From a virus (lineage: Duplodnaviria; Caudoviricetes): a stretch of DNA of 31,351 nucleotides. The notes below the pieces were generated by a model, which was not told the DNA's origin, did not search any database, and was given only the letters and a program-made list of their open reading frames with translations. Below, piece by piece: positions 7,236 through 23,544 of the stretch; position 1 is the stretch's first letter, and every line of letters starts with the position of its first letter. The DNA lies in the IMG/VR virus record IMGVR_UViG_3300048631_000054, positions 1 to 31,351 of that record, one strand, 5' to 3'. Position numbers and translations under genes: made by a program.

Positions 7236-8330
7236 ATGGCATTTACATCAGAAGGAATGTTCTACTTAGGTAAAGAAGACCTAGCACCTACAATAGGTAT
7301 GGTCGGTACAGGCGTACGAGGTATGCTTGGGATGCAGAACGAAGAAGAAGCGGTTAAAGCTTTAATGGCTAGCTCTGATTTAGAGAGTTCAGAAGGAAGA
7401 CAGAGTTTCTTAAATCAGTTACAAGGTATCAGTCCAGATGCTCATAAAGAGTTCAGTAAACAATTCCAAGAATACGATGTAGAATCATTGAAAGGTAAAG
7501 CTTATGCTCAACAGGTAGATATCCAGCATAAATCTCTTCAGATGAAACTAGAGGACAGGGAAGCTGCTAAACGTATTCCTCAACTAAAGTCTAACTACAA
7601 GTTCAATGAAGAAGCTAAAGATATTAAATACTTCTTAACAGGTTTGTATCCTGAAGATGAGAAAGGTATCGCTGGGATAGATAGTATTCAAAAAGCTAAG
7701 CAGTATCTATCTACTGCTAATAAAGCAGCAGGGCATACTAAGGGTCTGAACCACGATGTCTTAGCAAACACTATCAAGTTTAAGAGAGATAGTTACGTAA
7801 ACCAGAATAAGTACAACCCTATTGAGAAGAGAGCTACGTTGACTACAGCAGGACAGGATGTATTTAATTTACCTGCTAGGCAAGGTACTCCTAATGCTCC
7901 TGTAGCTACTGGTCATGTAGTTACTCCTGATAATAGTCAGTTTATTCCTTTAGGTACTCAAGAGACACCAGGGATTACTCAAGTTGACCCAGAAGCTAGT
8001 GCTTTAGATAAAGTTCTAAACCCTCCTATAGCTCAAGCAGCTGAGGATTTAAAAGGTATCCTAAGTAATACTTTCTCTACTATTGATGTACAAGGTTCAG
8101 ATAAATCTGAGTACGATATGACTAAGACTGAGCGTTCTAAAGAGAATAAATTAGATGCTTTAAGAGATTTCTTAGGGAACGGTAGTATCCTAACATCTTC
8201 TGCTCATCAACACTTCTCGAAGAATCCTAAAGAGTTAGTGCAGTTTAATAAGAACCCTATGATGTGGTTTATGAAGAATGTCAGCCCTAAGGGTTATGAC
8301 TACAGTGAATACAATTTATTAGGTAACTAA
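7236..8330 (+). CDS. Putative internal virion protein
   Basis: AAGGAG RBS; helical composition; lies between ejection-type genes. Confidence 0.55.
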   Translation: MAFTSEGMFYLGKEDLAPTIGMVGTGVRGMLGMQNEEEAVKALMASSDLESSEGRQSFLNQLQGISPDAHKEFSKQFQEYDVESLKGKAYAQQVDIQHKSLQMKLEDREAAKRIPQLKSNYKFNEEAKDIKYFLTGLYPEDEKGIAGIDSIQKAKQYLSTANKAAGHTKGLNHDVLANTIKFKRDSYVNQNKYNPIEKRATLTTAGQDVFNLPARQGTPNAPVATGHVVTPDNSQFIPLGTQETPGITQVDPEASALDKVLNPPIAQAAEDLKGILSNTFSTIDVQGSDKSEYDMTKTERSKENKLDALRDFLGNGSILTSSAHQHFSKNPKELVQFNKNPMMWFMKNVSPKGYDYSEYNLLGN

Positions 8331-11300
8331 TGAGCATAGTCAGCAGACAACCTACTAACGACTACAACGTCACCCGAGCAGAGAACCTAGTCAATCACGC
8401 TTATTATGGTGGTGAAGAACAAGGTGTCTATGAAGGTATTGTCGGAGAACACGAGGACTTCGGTTCTTGGTTTACCTCTGGTTTATCTGGTCTATTCTTA
8501 TCTCAAGCATTACCTGAAGACCAAGAGAAAGAGTTATTCATTAAAAGAACCTCAGCTAACTACGGTATGGCTAAGTTAGATGAGACTATTGAAGCTTTTA
8601 GACAGCTAAACGAAGTCAGGGGTTTAACTTCTGATGAGTTATCTACAGTTAAAGAGCTAGTTAAACGTAAGAGTGTCTTGGTTGATGACTTAGCTTATGT
8701 CAATGATAACTTCAATGGAGATTTAGATGCTCCTATGGATGTAGAGGGTAACTCTTTTACAGATAGGTGGAGTGTCGGTGATGACGAAGCTGGTATTCTA
8801 GAGTTCATTGACGGTGTTAAGAAGAATCCTAAGTATGCTACTGGTATTGTTATAGGTGAGATACTGAAAGATGCTCCTCTATCTGTATTAGCTTGGTTAG
8901 GTTTAACTGCTAAGACTGCTAAAGGTGCTTCTGCTTTTGCAACTGTTGTTAATAAACTGAATAACATTCAACCTAAAGCTTTAAGAGGTTTAGCTAAGGT
9001 AGCTACTCCTATAGGTATGGGTGCTGTAGGTGGTGGAGCTTATGAAGCTGGTTACTCTAAGCTTAATGAAGGTAAAGTTAAATGGCAAGATGTTAAAGCT
9101 GGTACTGAGTTTGGTGCTGCCTTCGGTATCTTAGGTACTTTAGGTGTGTTTGCTAAAGGTGTTATACCTGAACAAGCTGTTAAAGCAGGAACTAAAATAT
9201 CCAAGGCTAGTAAAGATACTCCTATGGGAGATATGTCTGTAAGTGAGGTTGTAGATACTTTAGTAGATAAAGCTGAAAGAGAAAGAATAACTAAGTTCTC
9301 TGAATCTTTGATGGCTGAGCATGATAAGAGGTTGTTCCCTCAACTGACTGCTGCTAATTATACTATTATGAATAGAGCAGAAGCTAAACAAGCAGGTATC
9401 TCACTGGCAGATAAGGACGGTAAAGGTGCTTTCAATCGATACCAAGATGGTAAGAACACTATCATCTGGGGTGAGAAGGAAACTGAAGCTACCTTTAAAA
9501 GATTACAACAAGAATTAAATGCTAAGGAGCTATCTGAAGTAGGTAAAGGTACTCTAGCTGGTACTTCTATTAATGACCTCAAATACTTACAAGATAAATC
9601 AACTTATGATGTCTTTCAACTAGCTCATGAGAAAGCTCATGTCATACAGAATGTAGAAGGTAGGACATTCTCTGCTCATCCTAACGATGCGTTGTTTAAA
9701 AGACCAGGTTCTTACAATAAAGAACTAGAAGCTAATCAAATGGCTTTTGAGGAATTGAATAGAACCTTTAAAGAACAACAAGTAGCCTCTGCTGATAAGT
9801 CTGTTGTAACTGCCGATAAACAAATAGGTATGTACAACGAAGGTAAAGAATACTTTCCTCCAGATTATGACGAGAAACTTAGAGGTTTAAAACAAGAAGA
9901 GACTGTACCACCTCAATTACCTAATAGTCAAATCGTTGATTTCTTAGAGAAACATAAAGCTAGTACATCTTTAGGTGCTGCTTTAGCTGCCTACAGTTTG
10001 TCAGGTGAAGAAGATGCTAAGTATGTAGCTGCGACTGCTGCCTTAGCTACCTTAGCTGGACCTAAAGCTTACAGAAAGCTAAATGAAGTACAAGTATCTC
10101 AAGAGTTAGCTAAGGCTAGACTTCAGGCTGCTAAAGCTCACGAAGGTTTATCTGTCTATGCTAAGAATGTAGAAGTATTAGGTCAATCCTTAGGTGATAG
10201 AATCACTAAACGATTCCCAGGTAACAGAGGTATTATCTTTTTAGAAGCTGTTGAGAAAGGTAAGACCTTTGATGATGTTGAAGGTAAGTCTTTAGTTAAG
10301 CAATGGAATGACTGGATGGGTTTCCTAGCTAGACAAGGTACTGAGGTAGGTCTATTCCAAGGAAAGCATGGTATAAGAAGAGGTAAGCTAAATCTAGTTG
10401 CTAATTATGTATCTCACATTGTCAGAGGTAAAGTCAATCCTGATGGTTCTGTCAGACCTTTAACTAATAAAGAAAAAGAAGACCTTATTAGAAGTCAAGC
10501 TGATAAGTTACACATTTCAGGGTCTACTAATACAGCTCACGAGATTCCTAGAAAGATTATGGGTACTTTAGAAGACCTTAAAGCTAAAGGTTATGCTGTT
10601 GTAGATGACCCTGCTCAAGTCTTAAGTATCTACAATCAAGCTATGATGAGAACTATCCACAACAGGAAGTTATTATCAGAGTTTAAACAACTAGACTTAG
10701 GTACTCCAGAGAAACCTATGCCAGCTATGTACACTGAGCAAGAGTTTGATAAGATTAAAGGTAGATTGACTAAGGAAGATAGGTATCAATACACTGAGTT
10801 TGACCATCCTTCACTACAAGGTTATAAAGTTCACAGTAACTTGAAAGACATTCTAAATGACCACTTTGAAATATCTAGAGAAGGTGGTTTAAATGACTTC
10901 GCTGAAGGTTTACTATCATTGAACAATGCTCTTAAGAGAGTCTTTGTATTCGGTTCTTTATTCCATGCTTCAGCTTTGTTTATGTCTGCTGTTTATTCAT
11001 TAGGTATATCAGGTGCTGTTAAAGGTATGTTCGGTAAAGGTAAGTTAGGAGCTAACCACTCTTGGAAAGATTTAGAACTAGGTACTGGTTCAATGACTAC
11101 TGTAATGCAAGAAGCTATTAAAGATGGTCTTGAAGTTGGTAATGTCAAACGTAAAGAATTAGTTAACCCAGGTAAAGTAGAACTAGATGAGTTCTTAGAT
11201 AAGTTAGGCGAGCCAGGAGTCTTAGGACAGAAAGCTTTCGGTAAGTTAGATGAGATTACTTGGGAGTATATGCACGATAGGTTTAAGGTAGCTTCTCACT

Positions 11301-12157
11301 TACGTCATAAAGAGATTCTAATGCGTAAAGGCATGGATGAAGTTACTGCTGGTAAGAAAGCTGCTGAGTTTGGTAACGATGCTTTCGGTTCATTGAACTG
11401 GAATGACTTTGCTACTAGATTATATGACTATGCTTACCGTAACCCTGGGAAACTTAGAGGTAAGATAGCCACTAAGACAGCTCAGATGCTACCTGTTAAT
11501 AAACGTAGATGGTTAAACCTTGGTTTGTTTGCACCTGACTGGACTATCTCTAATATTCGTATTGTAGGTAGAACATTCTGGAATGCTCCTAAGGTAACTA
11601 AAGCTTTTGTTAATAGAGTACACACGGGTAAATGGGGTAAGGATGAGAAAGAGTTCATCCAAGCTTGGAATATGTATGCTGCTTATTCAGCTAGAGCTGG
11701 CTTCTACACTTCAATCTTATGGTGGCAGATGACAGAGTTATTCTCTGATGAAGAGCCTACAATGGAAGCTTTAGGTGAGTTCTGGAGTGGTGAAACTTCA
11801 GGTAAACTACAATTAGGTGGTGGAGAATCGATGGTTATCTCTAAACAGATTGCTGAACCTATTCACTGGGTGCAACATCCTGCTCACACATTATTGAATA
11901 AGATGTCTGTCGTTCCTAAGACTGTAATGGAAGGCTTCTTTAATAAACAATGGTTCTCAATGAAGAAGGGATTCCCAATGGGTCCAGCTATTGTTGAACA
12001 GAACGGAGAAGCTCATTATGGTAAGTGGGTACTAGGTAAGTTCATTCCTATTGTAGCTAAACCTATAATAGCTGATGATTTAGAATGGCAAGAAAGATTT
12101 GAGAGAGTATTCACAGGTTTCTTTGGATTCCCTCAATACGGTAAACCTAAAGATTAA
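8330..12157 (+). CDS. Large internal virion/ejection protein with an HExxH motif
   Basis: 1275 aa, last large gene of the tail module, Gly/Ala hydrophobic segments, LAHEKAHVIQ..ELEANQ, LFAPDW motif. Confidence 0.7.
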   Translation: MSIVSRQPTNDYNVTRAENLVNHAYYGGEEQGVYEGIVGEHEDFGSWFTSGLSGLFLSQALPEDQEKELFIKRTSANYGMAKLDETIEAFRQLNEVRGLTSDELSTVKELVKRKSVLVDDLAYVNDNFNGDLDAPMDVEGNSFTDRWSVGDDEAGILEFIDGVKKNPKYATGIVIGEILKDAPLSVLAWLGLTAKTAKGASAFATVVNKLNNIQPKALRGLAKVATPIGMGAVGGGAYEAGYSKLNEGKVKWQDVKAGTEFGAAFGILGTLGVFAKGVIPEQAVKAGTKISKASKDTPMGDMSVSEVVDTLVDKAERERITKFSESLMAEHDKRLFPQLTAANYTIMNRAEAKQAGISLADKDGKGAFNRYQDGKNTIIWGEKETEATFKRLQQELNAKELSEVGKGTLAGTSINDLKYLQDKSTYDVFQLAHEKAHVIQNVEGRTFSAHPNDALFKRPGSYNKELEANQMAFEELNRTFKEQQVASADKSVVTADKQIGMYNEGKEYFPPDYDEKLRGLKQEETVPPQLPNSQIVDFLEKHKASTSLGAALAAYSLSGEEDAKYVAATAALATLAGPKAYRKLNEVQVSQELAKARLQAAKAHEGLSVYAKNVEVLGQSLGDRITKRFPGNRGIIFLEAVEKGKTFDDVEGKSLVKQWNDWMGFLARQGTEVGLFQGKHGIRRGKLNLVANYVSHIVRGKVNPDGSVRPLTNKEKEDLIRSQADKLHISGSTNTAHEIPRKIMGTLEDLKAKGYAVVDDPAQVLSIYNQAMMRTIHNRKLLSEFKQLDLGTPEKPMPAMYTEQEFDKIKGRLTKEDRYQYTEFDHPSLQGYKVHSNLKDILNDHFEISREGGLNDFAEGLLSLNNALKRVFVFGSLFHASALFMSAVYSLGISGAVKGMFGKGKLGANHSWKDLELGTGSMTTVMQEAIKDGLEVGNVKRKELVNPGKVELDEFLDKLGEPGVLGQKAFGKLDEITWEYMHDRFKVASHLRHKEILMRKGMDEVTAGKKAAEFGNDAFGSLNWNDFATRLYDYAYRNPGKLRGKIATKTAQMLPVNKRRWLNLGLFAPDWTISNIRIVGRTFWNAPKVTKAFVNRVHTGKWGKDEKEFIQAWNMYAAYSARAGFYTSILWWQMTELFSDEEPTMEALGEFWSGETSGKLQLGGGESMVISKQIAEPIHWVQHPAHTLLNKMSVVPKTVMEGFFNKQWFSMKKGFPMGPAIVEQNGEAHYGKWVLGKFIPIVAKPIIADDLEWQERFERVFTGFFGFPQYGKPKD

Positions 12158-21192: not shown

Positions 21193-21587
21193 TAGAAAGA
21201 CCACCATCTCTTCTTATGCTTAGCTATTATCTGACGTATGATAATCCTCATAGGTAAGTCTTGCTTCTTTGCTAGTTCAAGTACATAGTCATGGTCTTCT
21301 TCAGAGCTGGGTAACGAGTAGTTCTCCCTCCTCTTTTCCTGTAGCTTGATAGGCTTGTGCTTAGGTACTAAGTCTTCGATAGCTTCAATGACTTTGTTCT
21401 TAGACTGTAACTGAACTGAAGCCTCATTCCCACTAGGTATCTCAGGTACGTGATTCTTCAAGTGTTTGTATATTGATTGTGAAGACAAGCCTAGTATCTT
21501 AGCTACCTGTAGCTTTGAAATACCCTTGTCATGTAGAGCCTTCATCTTATTATATTGACTCATTGTTATTCTTCTTCCTGTACTCAT
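21192..21587 (-). CDS. Putative transcriptional regulator: N-terminal HTH plus C-terminal ribbon-helix-helix-like segment
   Basis: LHDKGISKLQVAKILGLSSQSIYKHL; NYSLP..EEDHDYVLELAKKQDLPMRIIIRQII; AGGAG RBS. Confidence 0.72.
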   Translation of the reverse strand: MSTGRRITMSQYNKMKALHDKGISKLQVAKILGLSSQSIYKHLKNHVPEIPSGNEASVQLQSKNKVIEAIEDLVPKHKPIKLQEKRRENYSLPSSEEDHDYVLELAKKQDLPMRIIIRQIIAKHKKRWWSF

Positions 21588-21615
21588 GTTGTTACTCCTA
21601 CGTTGTTAAAATCCC

Positions 21616-21657
21616 AGACTAATCCATTCCCTAAAACACCTAGACTAATCCATTCCC
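21616..21657. repeat. 16-bp direct repeat AGACTAATCCATTCCC, two copies
   Basis: Exact copies at 21616-21631 and 21642-21657, upstream of the HTH gene. Confidence 0.9.
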
Positions 21658-21716
21658 CGATACTGCCCCGATTATTTATAAAGTAATGATAGACAATCAG
21701 TGTAGATACGAACAAT

Positions 21717-21740
21717 AAAAAGAGAGACCGAAGCCTCTCT
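21717..21740 (-). terminator. Rho-independent terminator of the 21758..22156 gene
   Basis: Minus strand AGAGAGGC-TTCG-GTCTCTCT then TTTT; C(UUCG)G loop. Confidence 0.88.
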
Positions 21741-21757
21741 GATTGTTTAGTTAATGT

Positions 21758-22156
21758 TTATCTTTGTTTAGGTACAAAGTCTGAATCAACTTCTTGATTA
21801 GTAACTTTCATCTTACTTCCTTTAAGAGGTTTAACATATTCTCTACCTAAGATTTCTAGATGTTTTAGTTTAAAGTCTTTCTGCATACCTTCTAAGTTTA
21901 GAATCTGTTCGTCTAGCTGGTTTAGGTAAGTACCTTTGCTTGCTAATGCCCTAGAGTTACTTTCAGTACCTGTAGAATCTTCTTTTAATACTTGGTATTG
22001 AGCGTAGTTCTGACGGTAGGTTGTTAGTTGATAATCTAAATCACTTTCTAACCAGTATAGAGTTCCTTTGATTGTTCTGGACTGCGTAGTATATTCAAGG
22101 TTGGAGCTGTCATCTGATGGAAGTGAATCGATGTATTTAGTGTTTAAGTTTTTCAT
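21758..22156 (-). CDS. Orphan coiled-coil protein, stand-alone transcription unit
   Basis: AAGGA RBS, own terminator, heptad pattern; first gene of the - arm. Confidence 0.8.
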   Translation of the reverse strand: MKNLNTKYIDSLPSDDSSNLEYTTQSRTIKGTLYWLESDLDYQLTTYRQNYAQYQVLKEDSTGTESNSRALASKGTYLNQLDEQILNLEGMQKDFKLKHLEILGREYVKPLKGSKMKVTNQEVDSDFVPKQR

Positions 22157-22447
22157 TGTTTATCCTTTTTATTGTTTTATAAGATGTCCTATGGACGCTG
22201 TAAAGGAAACGTGCTAGGGATTTAAGGTCAACATCAAGGCTACCTTAGTGAGCACAGCGAACTTAGGAAGACTTAGCGTGTTTAGTGTTGACCTTAGATT
22301 TCTAGTATGTTGGGATAGCAGTGGGCTTAGGTTCATCTTTGCTATAAAACAATAACAAGGTTAAACAAAGCTATGAATAACTTAAACATGGGTACTGAGA
22401 TGAACGTACTGAGGATTACACGGAAACCTTGAATATACAAGTAGTCC
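22079..22447 (+). repeat. Long imperfect inverted repeat / hairpin (about 370 nt)
   Basis: Nested stems 22089-22102/22425-22438 (14/14), 22141-22156/22373-22388 (15/16), 22156-22181/22343-22368 (24/26), 22208-22233/22286-22311 (26 pairs including 5 G-T). Confidence 0.93.
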
Positions 22448-22470
22448 TATTGTTTCCTAAACACAGCTAG

Positions 22471-22497
22471 TTTCCTTTGTTTCCTTTGTTTCCTTAG
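22471..22497. repeat. 9-bp tandem repeat TTTCCTTTG x3 (last copy TTTCCTTAG)
   Basis: Read directly; a partial copy at 22453. Confidence 0.85.
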
Positions 22498-22767
22498 TAT
22501 ATGTCTAATGTTAATTTAAATAAACAGTAGTTAATCTGTGTGTCAGTGTAAGTAGGTTTGATTGTCTGTCGTTAGGTACTTTGACTGTCTATCATTACTT
22601 CACACACTCATGGATACTACGGTAACAAGAGACACTCGAGTATCTGTAGCGACTGTATCAACGGGGTAGGGGGACCCATGTGGTGACTCCATACTATTAA
22701 TTAACAATCATTATCAGACGAGAGAAGGGTTTGAGATTTGTAGATAAATAGTAGAACTAATGTAAAC

Positions 22768-22801
22768 CTGTGGATAACTATAGGAAAGCTGTGGATAACT
22801 A
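22768..22801. promoter_or_regulatory. Two perfect DnaA boxes within a 13-bp direct repeat CTGTGGATAACTA
   Basis: TGTGGATAA (reverse complement TTATCCACA) at 22769-22777 and 22790-22798, 21 bp apart. Confidence 0.7.
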
Positions 22802-22830
22802 CTCATTTGATGAATTAGATGACTATCTAC

Positions 22831-22859
22831 TTTACTTTACCTTGTTTATCAGCTACAAT
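22831..22859 (+). promoter_or_regulatory. Putative sigma70 promoter for the packaging/structural arm
   Basis: TTTACT-17 bp-TACAAT. Confidence 0.6.
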
Positions 22860-23157
22860 CAAAACCAAGTTCACTACTTAAGAAACAAGAGTTGCTGAAG
22901 AAGACCACCATGACCTTCCAATGAGTAACCATTTAGATTACCTACTAACTACTTTAATAACTTTAATAGCTTTAATCTAGTTAACCTAAAACTTAAAACA
23001 ACCTTTAGTCTAAACAACTACTGAGCGGAAACCAAGGTGGAGGGATTCAGAGGTGTCTTGCTACTTAAGACGTGGAATTGCTAATAAAGGTACTAAATTA
23101 ACTATTATGTTGATAACTTAGTACCTGTTTTGTTTAACCCTAACGGATAATTAAACT

Positions 23158-23544
23158 ATGTCTACTAAATCTAAACATCAAGGTAATCCTAACTTTGTTA
23201 AGGGAATGAAATCCCTAAATCCCGCTGGCAGACCTAAAGGTTCTGTAAATAAATATACCCAACTCGCTAGAGAACTACTCAGTTCTAGAGGTGAAGAGAT
23301 TGTTGAGGTTGTCATTGCTAAGGCTCTTAAAGGTGATGTTCACTGTTTAAAGATGTGTATGGACAGGATTGTCCCTGCGCAGAAAGCTATTGAGATTAAA
23401 CATACTAAAGCTGAAGGTGGTTTAGTTATTAATGTTGGTACGACTGAACAGATTGAAGAGATGGCTAAGGTCACTAAACCTAAGAGATTAAAGACTAAAG
23501 GTGATGATGAGGTCATAGCTGAGGTATTAGATGGGGACTCTTAA
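23158..23544 (+). CDS. terS: Terminase small subunit (DUF5681-like N-terminus)
   Basis: FVKG.S.NPAGRPKGSVNK motif, KALKGD..CLK..DR..P; overlaps terL. Confidence 0.85.
   Translation: MSTKSKHQGNPNFVKGMKSLNPAGRPKGSVNKYTQLARELLSSRGEEIVEVVIAKALKGDVHCLKMCMDRIVPAQKAIEIKHTKAEGGLVINVGTTEQIEEMAKVTKPKRLKTKGDDEVIAEVLDGDS

What the first reader, a model, noticed from the sequence alone, without database searches (positions are those of the whole stretch)
22190..22325. The folded hairpin builds a promoter: candidate ssDNA-activated (Frpo/sso-like) expression or priming system
Seen: in the fold, TTGACC (22288-22293) is duplex, followed by a fully paired 17-bp spacer, and the -10 position (TGGGAT, 22311-22316, preceded by TG) coincides with an internal loop (GGG opposite AAAGGA). 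RNA polymerase bound this way would copy the left arm from about 22193, giving the mRNA of gene 21758..22156 with its RBS. Neither arm has a consensus -10 in duplex DNA. Established: F-plasmid Frpo, rolling-circle plasmid ssoA and the M13 minus-strand origin are ssDNA hairpins used by host RNA polymerase. Inference: the phage links expression of one gene, or RNA-polymerase priming, to the time this strand is single-stranded (entry, end resection, strand displacement or terminal-repeat duplication). I do not know of this arrangement in a T7-replisome podovirus.
Basis: inference. Interest (0 to 1): 0.85.

Follow-up and report, generated by a model that had tools for sequence, protein, structure and literature searches.

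The report
Phage gene with folded-back shadow copy
In a group of marine phages the first early gene sits beside an inverted, non-coding copy of itself that changes in step with it, and the single DNA strand likely folds back on itself to build the gene's promoter, which would switch the gene on only when that stretch of phage DNA has lost its partner strand.

Summary
The hairpin is real and larger than reported: an imperfect inverted repeat at 22079-22447 (E 2.5e-20, the only one in the window). Its right arm is a degenerate, non-coding copy of the promoter, leader and first 78 nt of gene 21758..22156. In relatives this 'shadow' covers the whole gene and terminator (1.0-1.2 kb fold-backs; 13 of 20 terS-anchored loci with such a gene), carries about 25 indels, and follows its own gene's substitutions. 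In 9 of 11 hairpin types the shadow arm holds a paired -35 and a -10 ending in T, and the projected start falls at or near a small mRNA 5' hairpin. The untranscribed promoter stem covaries (6 of 22 pairs). Best reading (0.5): the + strand folds back as single-stranded DNA into a sigma70 promoter and a duplex-like gene, working like plasmid Frpo promoters but without sequence kinship. Against: no expression data; the trigger and genome end are unknown; the gene arm holds an overlooked TTTACA-17-TATAAA site. The protein is an unannotated helical hairpin. My literature searches found no such whole-gene shadow.

The parts
22079..22233 (+). Gene arm of the fold-back: template strand of the promoter, leader and first 78 nt of the gene
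   Evidence: Self-inverted alignment 22079-22447, E 2.5e-20; arm alignment; fold
22234..22285 (+). Variable apex of the hairpin
   Evidence: 8 to about 90 nt in relatives; most listed strain differences within the hairpin fall here
22286..22447 (+). Shadow arm: inverted, degenerate, non-coding copy of promoter, leader and gene start (whole gene plus terminator in relatives)
22288..22293 (+). -35-like TTGACC, paired in the fold
   Evidence: TTG invariant in 7 of 7 aligned stems
22308..22317 (+). TG extension and -10 position TGGGAT; -12 paired, -11 to -6 unpaired opposite 22202-22207
22186..22196 (-). Small hairpin at the projected 5' end of the mRNA (projected +1 = 22196)
   Evidence: Best hairpin start among 66 positions; UNCG-loop equivalents in relatives
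22176..22204 (-). Rival double-stranded promoter-like site TTTACA-17-TATAAA on the gene strand
   Evidence: similar sites in L091, L095, L096, L083, L163, none above 7.2 in L092, L084, L105, the L085/L086 group, L007, L144, L175
21758..22156 (-). First early gene, 132 aa, predicted two-helix hairpin, no family (family A here)
21721..21740 (-). Intrinsic terminator of the gene
21681..21704 (+). Left closing arm, just beyond the terminator
   Evidence: Inverted repeat I25; paired in the 1-kb fold; counterpart motifs in relatives
22577..22600 (+). Right closing arm; boundary at which other strains carry a different cassette
   Evidence: joint 21721 to 22580 in contigs of two DNA runs
22663..22677 (+). 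Conserved G-run, 60-70 nt beyond the closing arm; candidate genome end or terminal-repeat boundary (inferred)
   Evidence: analogy to cobavirus DTRs (PMC6775973)

Best explanation
The first early gene of this phage group is flanked by an inverted, non-coding copy that changes in step with it, and the + strand likely folds back as single-stranded DNA so that the copy supplies the non-template strand of a host sigma70 promoter and of the gene. In the fold the -35 is duplex and the -10 is partly open; RNA polymerase would start about 40 nt before the start codon and copy the gene arm. Where the shadow is full length it would give the polymerase a partner strand down to the terminator, so that a whole mRNA is released instead of a short primer. 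In ordinary duplex DNA the same elements point into the shadow, which has no reading frame and a damaged terminator. This window carries a shortened version (promoter, leader, 78 nt, and the closing stem). Shown: the repeat, its covariation, the promoter-like geometry. Inferred: DNA rather than RNA pairing, transcription from the fold, and the trigger, most likely loss of the minus strand near the first-entering genome end (resection or strand displacement), with the protein acting as an early counter-measure.
For: Shadow follows its own gene where two phages differ: 26 of 36 (L085/L086), 40 of 50 (L086/L088), 38 of 53 (L091/L092), 58 of 94 (L091/L095), 14 of 24 (window/L084) ungapped sites. 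Full shadows exist for proteins only 26-33% alike and for a second family, and L163 joins this window's promoter type to a full shadow. The -35 and spacer stem, which lies upstream of either projected transcript, has both-side changes in 6 of 22 pairs and 98.7% paired cells. G.T v A.C in the window is 12:0 (p 0.005 after composition). Shadow-arm -35/-10 geometry in 9 of 11 hairpin types, 3 of them (L144, L175, L176) found after the rule was set. Projected +1 among the best 2-4 of 66 hairpin starts in 6 of 10 sequences. Shadow terminators are damaged and no fixed minus-strand promoter lies upstream of the shadow. Bacterial RNA polymerase makes only about 20 nt on single-stranded templates and needs rewinding to release RNA (PMC2241882, passages).
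Against: No transcript evidence: contigs of 4 RNA-type runs did not cover the element. No known route to ssDNA; the genome end is not mapped. The window's -10 lacks the -11 A, and a site as good as it (score 7.9) arises by chance in 7.5% of 31-position windows. TTTACA-17-TATAAA on the gene strand scores higher, and its -35 overlaps the left side of the bubble. L120- and L098-type gene arms have TTGACA-16-TAGAAC in the same register. L172 has no -35 and the L098 type has two registers. Only 5 of 17 loci with other first genes follow the rule. L017 has a family A gene and no repeat. Pooled promoter G.T v A.C is 25:8, p 0.002 against 50:50 but 0.11 against a 0.64 baseline; over whole shadows the strand preference mostly vanishes. 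A mismatched partner strand may release RNA poorly. Many loci are near-identical.
Confidence: 0.5

Rival explanations
1. The pairing is in RNA: one long transcript through shadow and gene, or a separate shadow transcript, forms a long imperfect duplex that silences the gene or serves as a decoy; the breaks would limit RNase III cleavage.
For: Folds are very stable as RNA; the shadow covers RBS and start codon; mismatches are mostly true helix breaks (7-13 transitions v 21-32 transversions in 7 of 10 coding shadows); several shadow arms hold a promoter that could work in duplex DNA (TTTACT-17-TATAGT).
Against: The covarying promoter stem lies upstream of both projected starts; on the mRNA strand its G.T pairs become A.C; no fixed upstream minus-strand promoter; full-length pairing through the terminator is not needed to block translation; breaks are only modestly regular and the longest run is not capped.
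Confidence: 0.2
2. The fold-back is a DNA-level device for replication or end handling: it caps or self-primes the 3' end near the G-run, or RNA polymerase makes a short primer at the bubble; the gene has its own ordinary promoter.
For: The closing arm keeps 60-70 nt from the G-run and survives where the middle shadow is lost; DnaA-box-like 9-mers lie close by; the genome has no RNA polymerase gene among its large ORFs; Frpo transcripts can prime (10.64898/2026.01.09.698686, passages).
Against: Any sequence could be folded for that purpose, yet the repeat is centred on a promoter and co-extensive with one transcription unit; other strains swap the cassette and 8 of 22 loci with other first genes have no such repeat, which argues against an essential origin.
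Confidence: 0.15
3. The gene is read from an ordinary duplex promoter; the shadow is an inverted duplication kept alike by template switching or gene conversion, with little function of its own.
For: TTTACA-17-TATAAA in the window; shadow length varies from about 40 nt past the bubble to the whole gene; conversion can explain tracking without selection.
Against: Indel positions are kept between lineages while substitutions change; 15-28 indel events per coding shadow is not neutral decay; differences between arms concentrate at the -10 in unrelated hairpins; the rival site is absent in several lineages and would leave UNCG hairpins untranscribed.
Confidence: 0.1

Closest known systems
Frpo/ssi (class 1) and class 2-3 ssDNA promoters of F and IncI plasmids (PMC9849209, PMC12672017, PMC11541004; passages read)
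   Same: Stem-loop that brings -35 and -10 boxes into a duplex-like form; the folding strand is the template; sits before the first-expressed genes of unknown or anti-defence role.
   Different: Lies in a tailed phage with T7-type replication genes, not a conjugative leading region; no known ssDNA phase; the stem is a copy of the gene itself and can run 500 nt through the terminator; hairpin sequences are not conserved between lineages.
ssoA and the M13 minus-strand origin (recalled, not read)
   Same: Imperfect ssDNA hairpin with promoter-like boxes used by host RNA polymerase.
   Different: Those make short primers on rolling-circle or ssDNA genomes; here the projected transcript has a 5' hairpin, RBS, gene and terminator.
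Two-armed podoviruses with direct terminal repeats (cobaviruses PMC6775973; phage tf PMC3517423; passages read)
   Same: Two convergent gene arms; ORF-free gap with a conserved G+C-rich motif where the termini lie; 3' single strands arise at the ends during replication.
   Different: No gene-length fold-back in the passages read; the SIO1 inverted repeats were judged likely misassembly. The ends of this phage are not mapped.
6S RNA and long hairpin or antisense RNAs (recalled; Rfam tested)
   Same: Long rod with a central bubble; antisense cover of an RBS.
   Different: No Rfam match at gathering score; conserved -35 letters and spacing point to DNA recognition.

Membership tests
Frpo/ssi ssDNA promoters | Stable ssDNA stem-loop | tested here: met
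   DNA fold z -9.3 for 22070-22460, 0 of 100 shuffles
Frpo/ssi ssDNA promoters | -35 and -10 boxes rebuilt in the stem | tested here: inconclusive
   -35 5 of 6 and paired; -10 only 3 of 6 letters, without the -11 A; geometry in 9 of 11 types
Frpo/ssi ssDNA promoters | Folding strand is the template of the gene | tested here: met
   + strand folds better in the window (-68 v -56 kcal/mol as DNA) and is the template of 21758..22156
Frpo/ssi ssDNA promoters | Location in the leading region of a conjugative element | tested here: not met
   Window is a phage with terminase, portal, capsid, T7-type helicase and polymerase
Frpo/ssi ssDNA promoters | Sequence homology to class 1-3 promoters | not tested
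   The plasmid collection was not searched; the phage collection gave no match to the hairpin
Frpo/ssi ssDNA promoters | Active on ssDNA, silent on dsDNA | not testable with these tools
   Needs in vitro transcription or 5' mapping
ssoA / M13-type priming signals | Rolling-circle or ssDNA replicon | tested here: not met
   T7-type replisome and terminase; no Rep family hit among the 44 window ORFs scanned against PHROGs
ssoA / M13-type priming signals | Short primer RNA made at the hairpin | not testable with these tools
   Needs biochemistry
6S RNA | Match to the Rfam model | tested here: not met
   No 6S hit to E 10 in 21500-23200
N4-type hairpin promoter read by a virion RNA polymerase | Phage-encoded virion RNA polymerase | tested here: inconclusive
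   The 1275-aa protein has no DxDGD motif, no PDB match and resembles internal core/large polyvalent proteins; its fold was not predicted

The most novel reading that the evidence does not exclude
A tailed dsDNA phage carries a 'fold-back gene': a whole transcription unit whose non-template strand is supplied by a co-evolving inverted shadow, silent in duplex DNA and switched on when the first-entering end is made single-stranded by host nucleases or helicases, so that an attack on the phage DNA itself turns on a counter-defence protein.
Probability: 0.3. Interest if true: 0.95.

Novelty: categorically new. Interest (0 to 1): 0.86.

Why it matters
The promoter module alone would be a new variant of the Frpo kind in an unexpected host, but the gene-length co-evolving shadow has no precedent that I could find. 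If the reading holds, ssDNA promoters are not confined to conjugation, a dsDNA phage must expose about 1 kb of one strand at a defined time, and a gene can be gated by the state of its own DNA. It also gives a natural, testable answer to how RNA polymerase can make a full mRNA from one strand, and points to two unannotated protein families as candidates for early counter-defence. Even under the RNA rival, a 500-bp imperfect duplex that tracks a coding gene would be new in phages.

Tried and rejected
Assembly artefact: rejected, arms are 63-81% alike with lineage-specific covariation and recur in many independent contigs. Rfam: nothing at gathering score. Cultured relatives: no hit for the hairpin or either protein family in 50,697 phage records. 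Host: 5 genome contigs with mixed bin labels, uninformative. Protein function: no PHROG, Pfam, PDB-fold or Atlas assignment; families A and B do not align by profile. Regular spacing of breaks: longest run not capped in 10 of 10; evenness p<0.05 in 4 of 10, so I do not claim designed spacing. RNA runs: contigs from 4 runs covered only 22841-23400; absence over the element is no evidence. Genome end from contig depth or starts: not decidable. A sigma54 reading and the ssoA CS-6-like hexamer at 22275 (both recalled motifs) were not conserved. Earlier scan notes on this genome or relatives: none. Supplements were not opened.

Full report
Setting. The window is a circularly permuted phage genome (142-nt end overlap) with terminase, portal and capsid genes on the + strand and gp2.5-like SSB, primase/helicase, family A polymerase and nucleases on the - strand. 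The two arms diverge from an ORF-free gap at 22157-23157. Seven of 20 listed runs hold half or more of the region's words; all seven are hydrothermal-vent metagenomes. No cultured relative is close (polymerase at most 46%) and the host is unknown.

The observation. TTGACC (22288-22293), a 17-nt spacer, TG at -15/-14 and TGGGAT (22311-22316) are as described; -12 is paired and -11 to -6 face AAAGGA (22202-22207). The spacer has 5 G.T pairs, so it closes only on the + strand. The element is larger than reported: the only self-inverted match in the window at E<=1e-4 is 22079-22447, and a second stem, 21681-21704 with 22577-22600, closes the gene and its terminator in the 1-kb fold. The right arm reads as a damaged copy of the leader, RBS, start codon and first 78 nt of gene 21758..22156.

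What it is. In relatives the copy runs through the whole gene and past its terminator. Of 80 terS-anchored loci, 42 reached a first minus-strand ORF; 20 of these were family A (this gene) or family B, all 20 had the repeat and 13 of 20 had one of 1.0-1.2 kb; of the 22 with other first genes 14 had a repeat, none over 340 nt. Of 20 metagenome loci 19 had it, 13 at 1 kb or more. Many of these loci are near-identical. None of 43 more distant terL loci (21 with 2 kb or more upstream) had one, and a 37-kb relative has exactly one. L017 has a family A gene without a repeat. Full shadows occur for proteins only 26-33% alike (L163, L172, L175). Where two phages differ in the gene arm, each shadow matches its own gene at 26 of 36, 16 of 30, 40 of 50, 38 of 53, 58 of 94, 68 of 98, 50 of 77, 58 of 91 and 52 of 92 ungapped sites in nine full-shadow pairs, and 14 of 24, 16 of 24 and 5 of 10 in the window's own group; this holds at synonymous and non-synonymous sites. 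Coding shadows carry 15-28 indel events and few transition-type mismatches, have no stop-free stretch over 43 codons (7 tested) and a damaged terminator copy. Other strains carry a different cassette between 21721 and 22580. The closing arm lies 60-70 nt from a conserved G-run in 7 of the full-shadow loci measured.

Promoter geometry. I scored sites with an approximate sigma70 matrix from memory. Among 11 hairpin types in front of family A/B genes, 9 have on the shadow arm a paired TTG/TTT-led -35, 16-18 nt and a hexamer ending in T, usually with a bulge, mismatch or wobble run in the -10; projected +1 lies 33-43 nt before the start codon. In L096 this site ranked second; L172 has no -35; the L098 type has two registers. 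Only 5 of 17 loci with other first genes fit. The projected start is among the best 2-4 of 66 hairpin starts in 6 of 10 sequences, 8-10 of 66 in 2, and failed in 2; several of these hairpins have UNCG loops, which are RNA features (recalled), so the message probably starts there. In 7 aligned stems of the window's type 6 of 22 pairs change on both sides and 98.7% of cells pair (structure drawn from the window, sequences related). A single site of score 7.9 is not rare (7.5% by chance); the case rests on recurrence.

How it most likely works. Shown: repeat, covariation, geometry. Inferred: the stem between -35 and -10 covaries although it is upstream of both projected transcripts, and its wobble pairs work only on the + strand, which points to pairing in DNA. 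The folded + strand would give sigma70 a duplex -35 and a partly open -10 and direct copying of the gene arm. Bacterial RNA polymerase makes only about 20 nt on a single-stranded template and RNA release needs rewinding (PMC2241882, passages), which gives a reason for a gene-long partner strand; a mismatched partner may do this poorly, which is a weakness. Indels would keep the shadow non-coding. The trigger is the weakest step. Podoviruses with this two-armed layout have terminal repeats in the gap, with a G+C-rich 5' end and 3' single strands during replication (PMC6775973, passages), and some have strand nicks (PMC3517423, passages). If the G-run marks the first-entering end, the + strand ends 3' there and loss of about 1 kb of the - strand would expose exactly this unit. 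Supercoiling-driven extrusion is possible but the loops are long and variable. The protein is a predicted two-helix hairpin (pLDDT 80.6) in a family of 34 representatives with no annotation; counter-defence is a guess from position.

Against. No RNA covers the element (contigs only). The window's -10 lacks the -11 A, the rival duplex site scores 10.9 against 7.9, and L120/L098 gene arms have TTGACA-16-TAGAAC; hosts that tolerate a missing last T exist (recalled). Pooled G.T v A.C is 25:8, significant against 50:50 but not against a 0.64 baseline, and whole shadows fold about equally on both strands in most lineages. Several shadow arms could fire in duplex DNA and make a sense-like RNA. Rivals: RNA duplex 0.2, replication or end device 0.15, relic kept by conversion 0.1.

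Comparison. It works like Frpo-type promoters (PMC9849209, PMC12672017, PMC11541004, 10.64898/2026.01.09.698686; passages; Masai and Arai 1997 seen only as cited), but is not filed as one: the setting criterion fails and activity is untested. Searches of open-access text (listings only) found no phage ssDNA promoter of this kind and no gene-length shadow; subscription papers and supplements were not seen.

Verdict. Real, selected and larger than first described; mechanism probable but unshown. Interest 0.86.

Noticed in passing
window 22831-23160: Sigma70-like TTTACT-17-TACAAT followed by a conserved non-coding stretch; RNA contigs of three runs on record as RNA (two studies) start at 22884-22890. 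Candidate small RNA or long terS leader; little consensus structure.
   Followed up: partly
window 22769-22777 and 22790-22798: Two TGTGGATAA boxes (DnaA-box consensus, recalled), two or three in several relatives, and similar to non-coding stretches of Klebsiella podoviruses.
   Followed up: partly
window 21615-21625 and 21641-21651: GGATTAGTCTG motif before the second early gene, kept in all 11 flanks printed; likely a phage promoter or regulator site.
   Followed up: partly
window 22560, 22582, 22707 (-), 21697 (-): Recurring TGA(C/T)TGT motif in both orientations around the cassette and the G-run; could be protein-binding sites rather than only a closing stem.
   Followed up: no
L134, L136, L140-L143, L151, L031: A different cassette with two shorter hairpins (about 85 and 150 nt) upstream of other first genes; does not fit the promoter rule.
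   Followed up: partly
L148, L149, L154, L156, L164, L171, L174, L194, L035: Contigs start 67-117 nt left of the G-run; either the cassette branch point or a terminal-repeat boundary.
   Followed up: partly
window 8330-12157: 1275-aa virion protein resembling internal core/large polyvalent proteins; no Pfam, PHROG or PDB match.
   Followed up: partly
L011:384-531: Near-perfect AT-rich inverted repeat with an asymmetric internal loop, closer to terS than the shadow hairpins.
   Followed up: no
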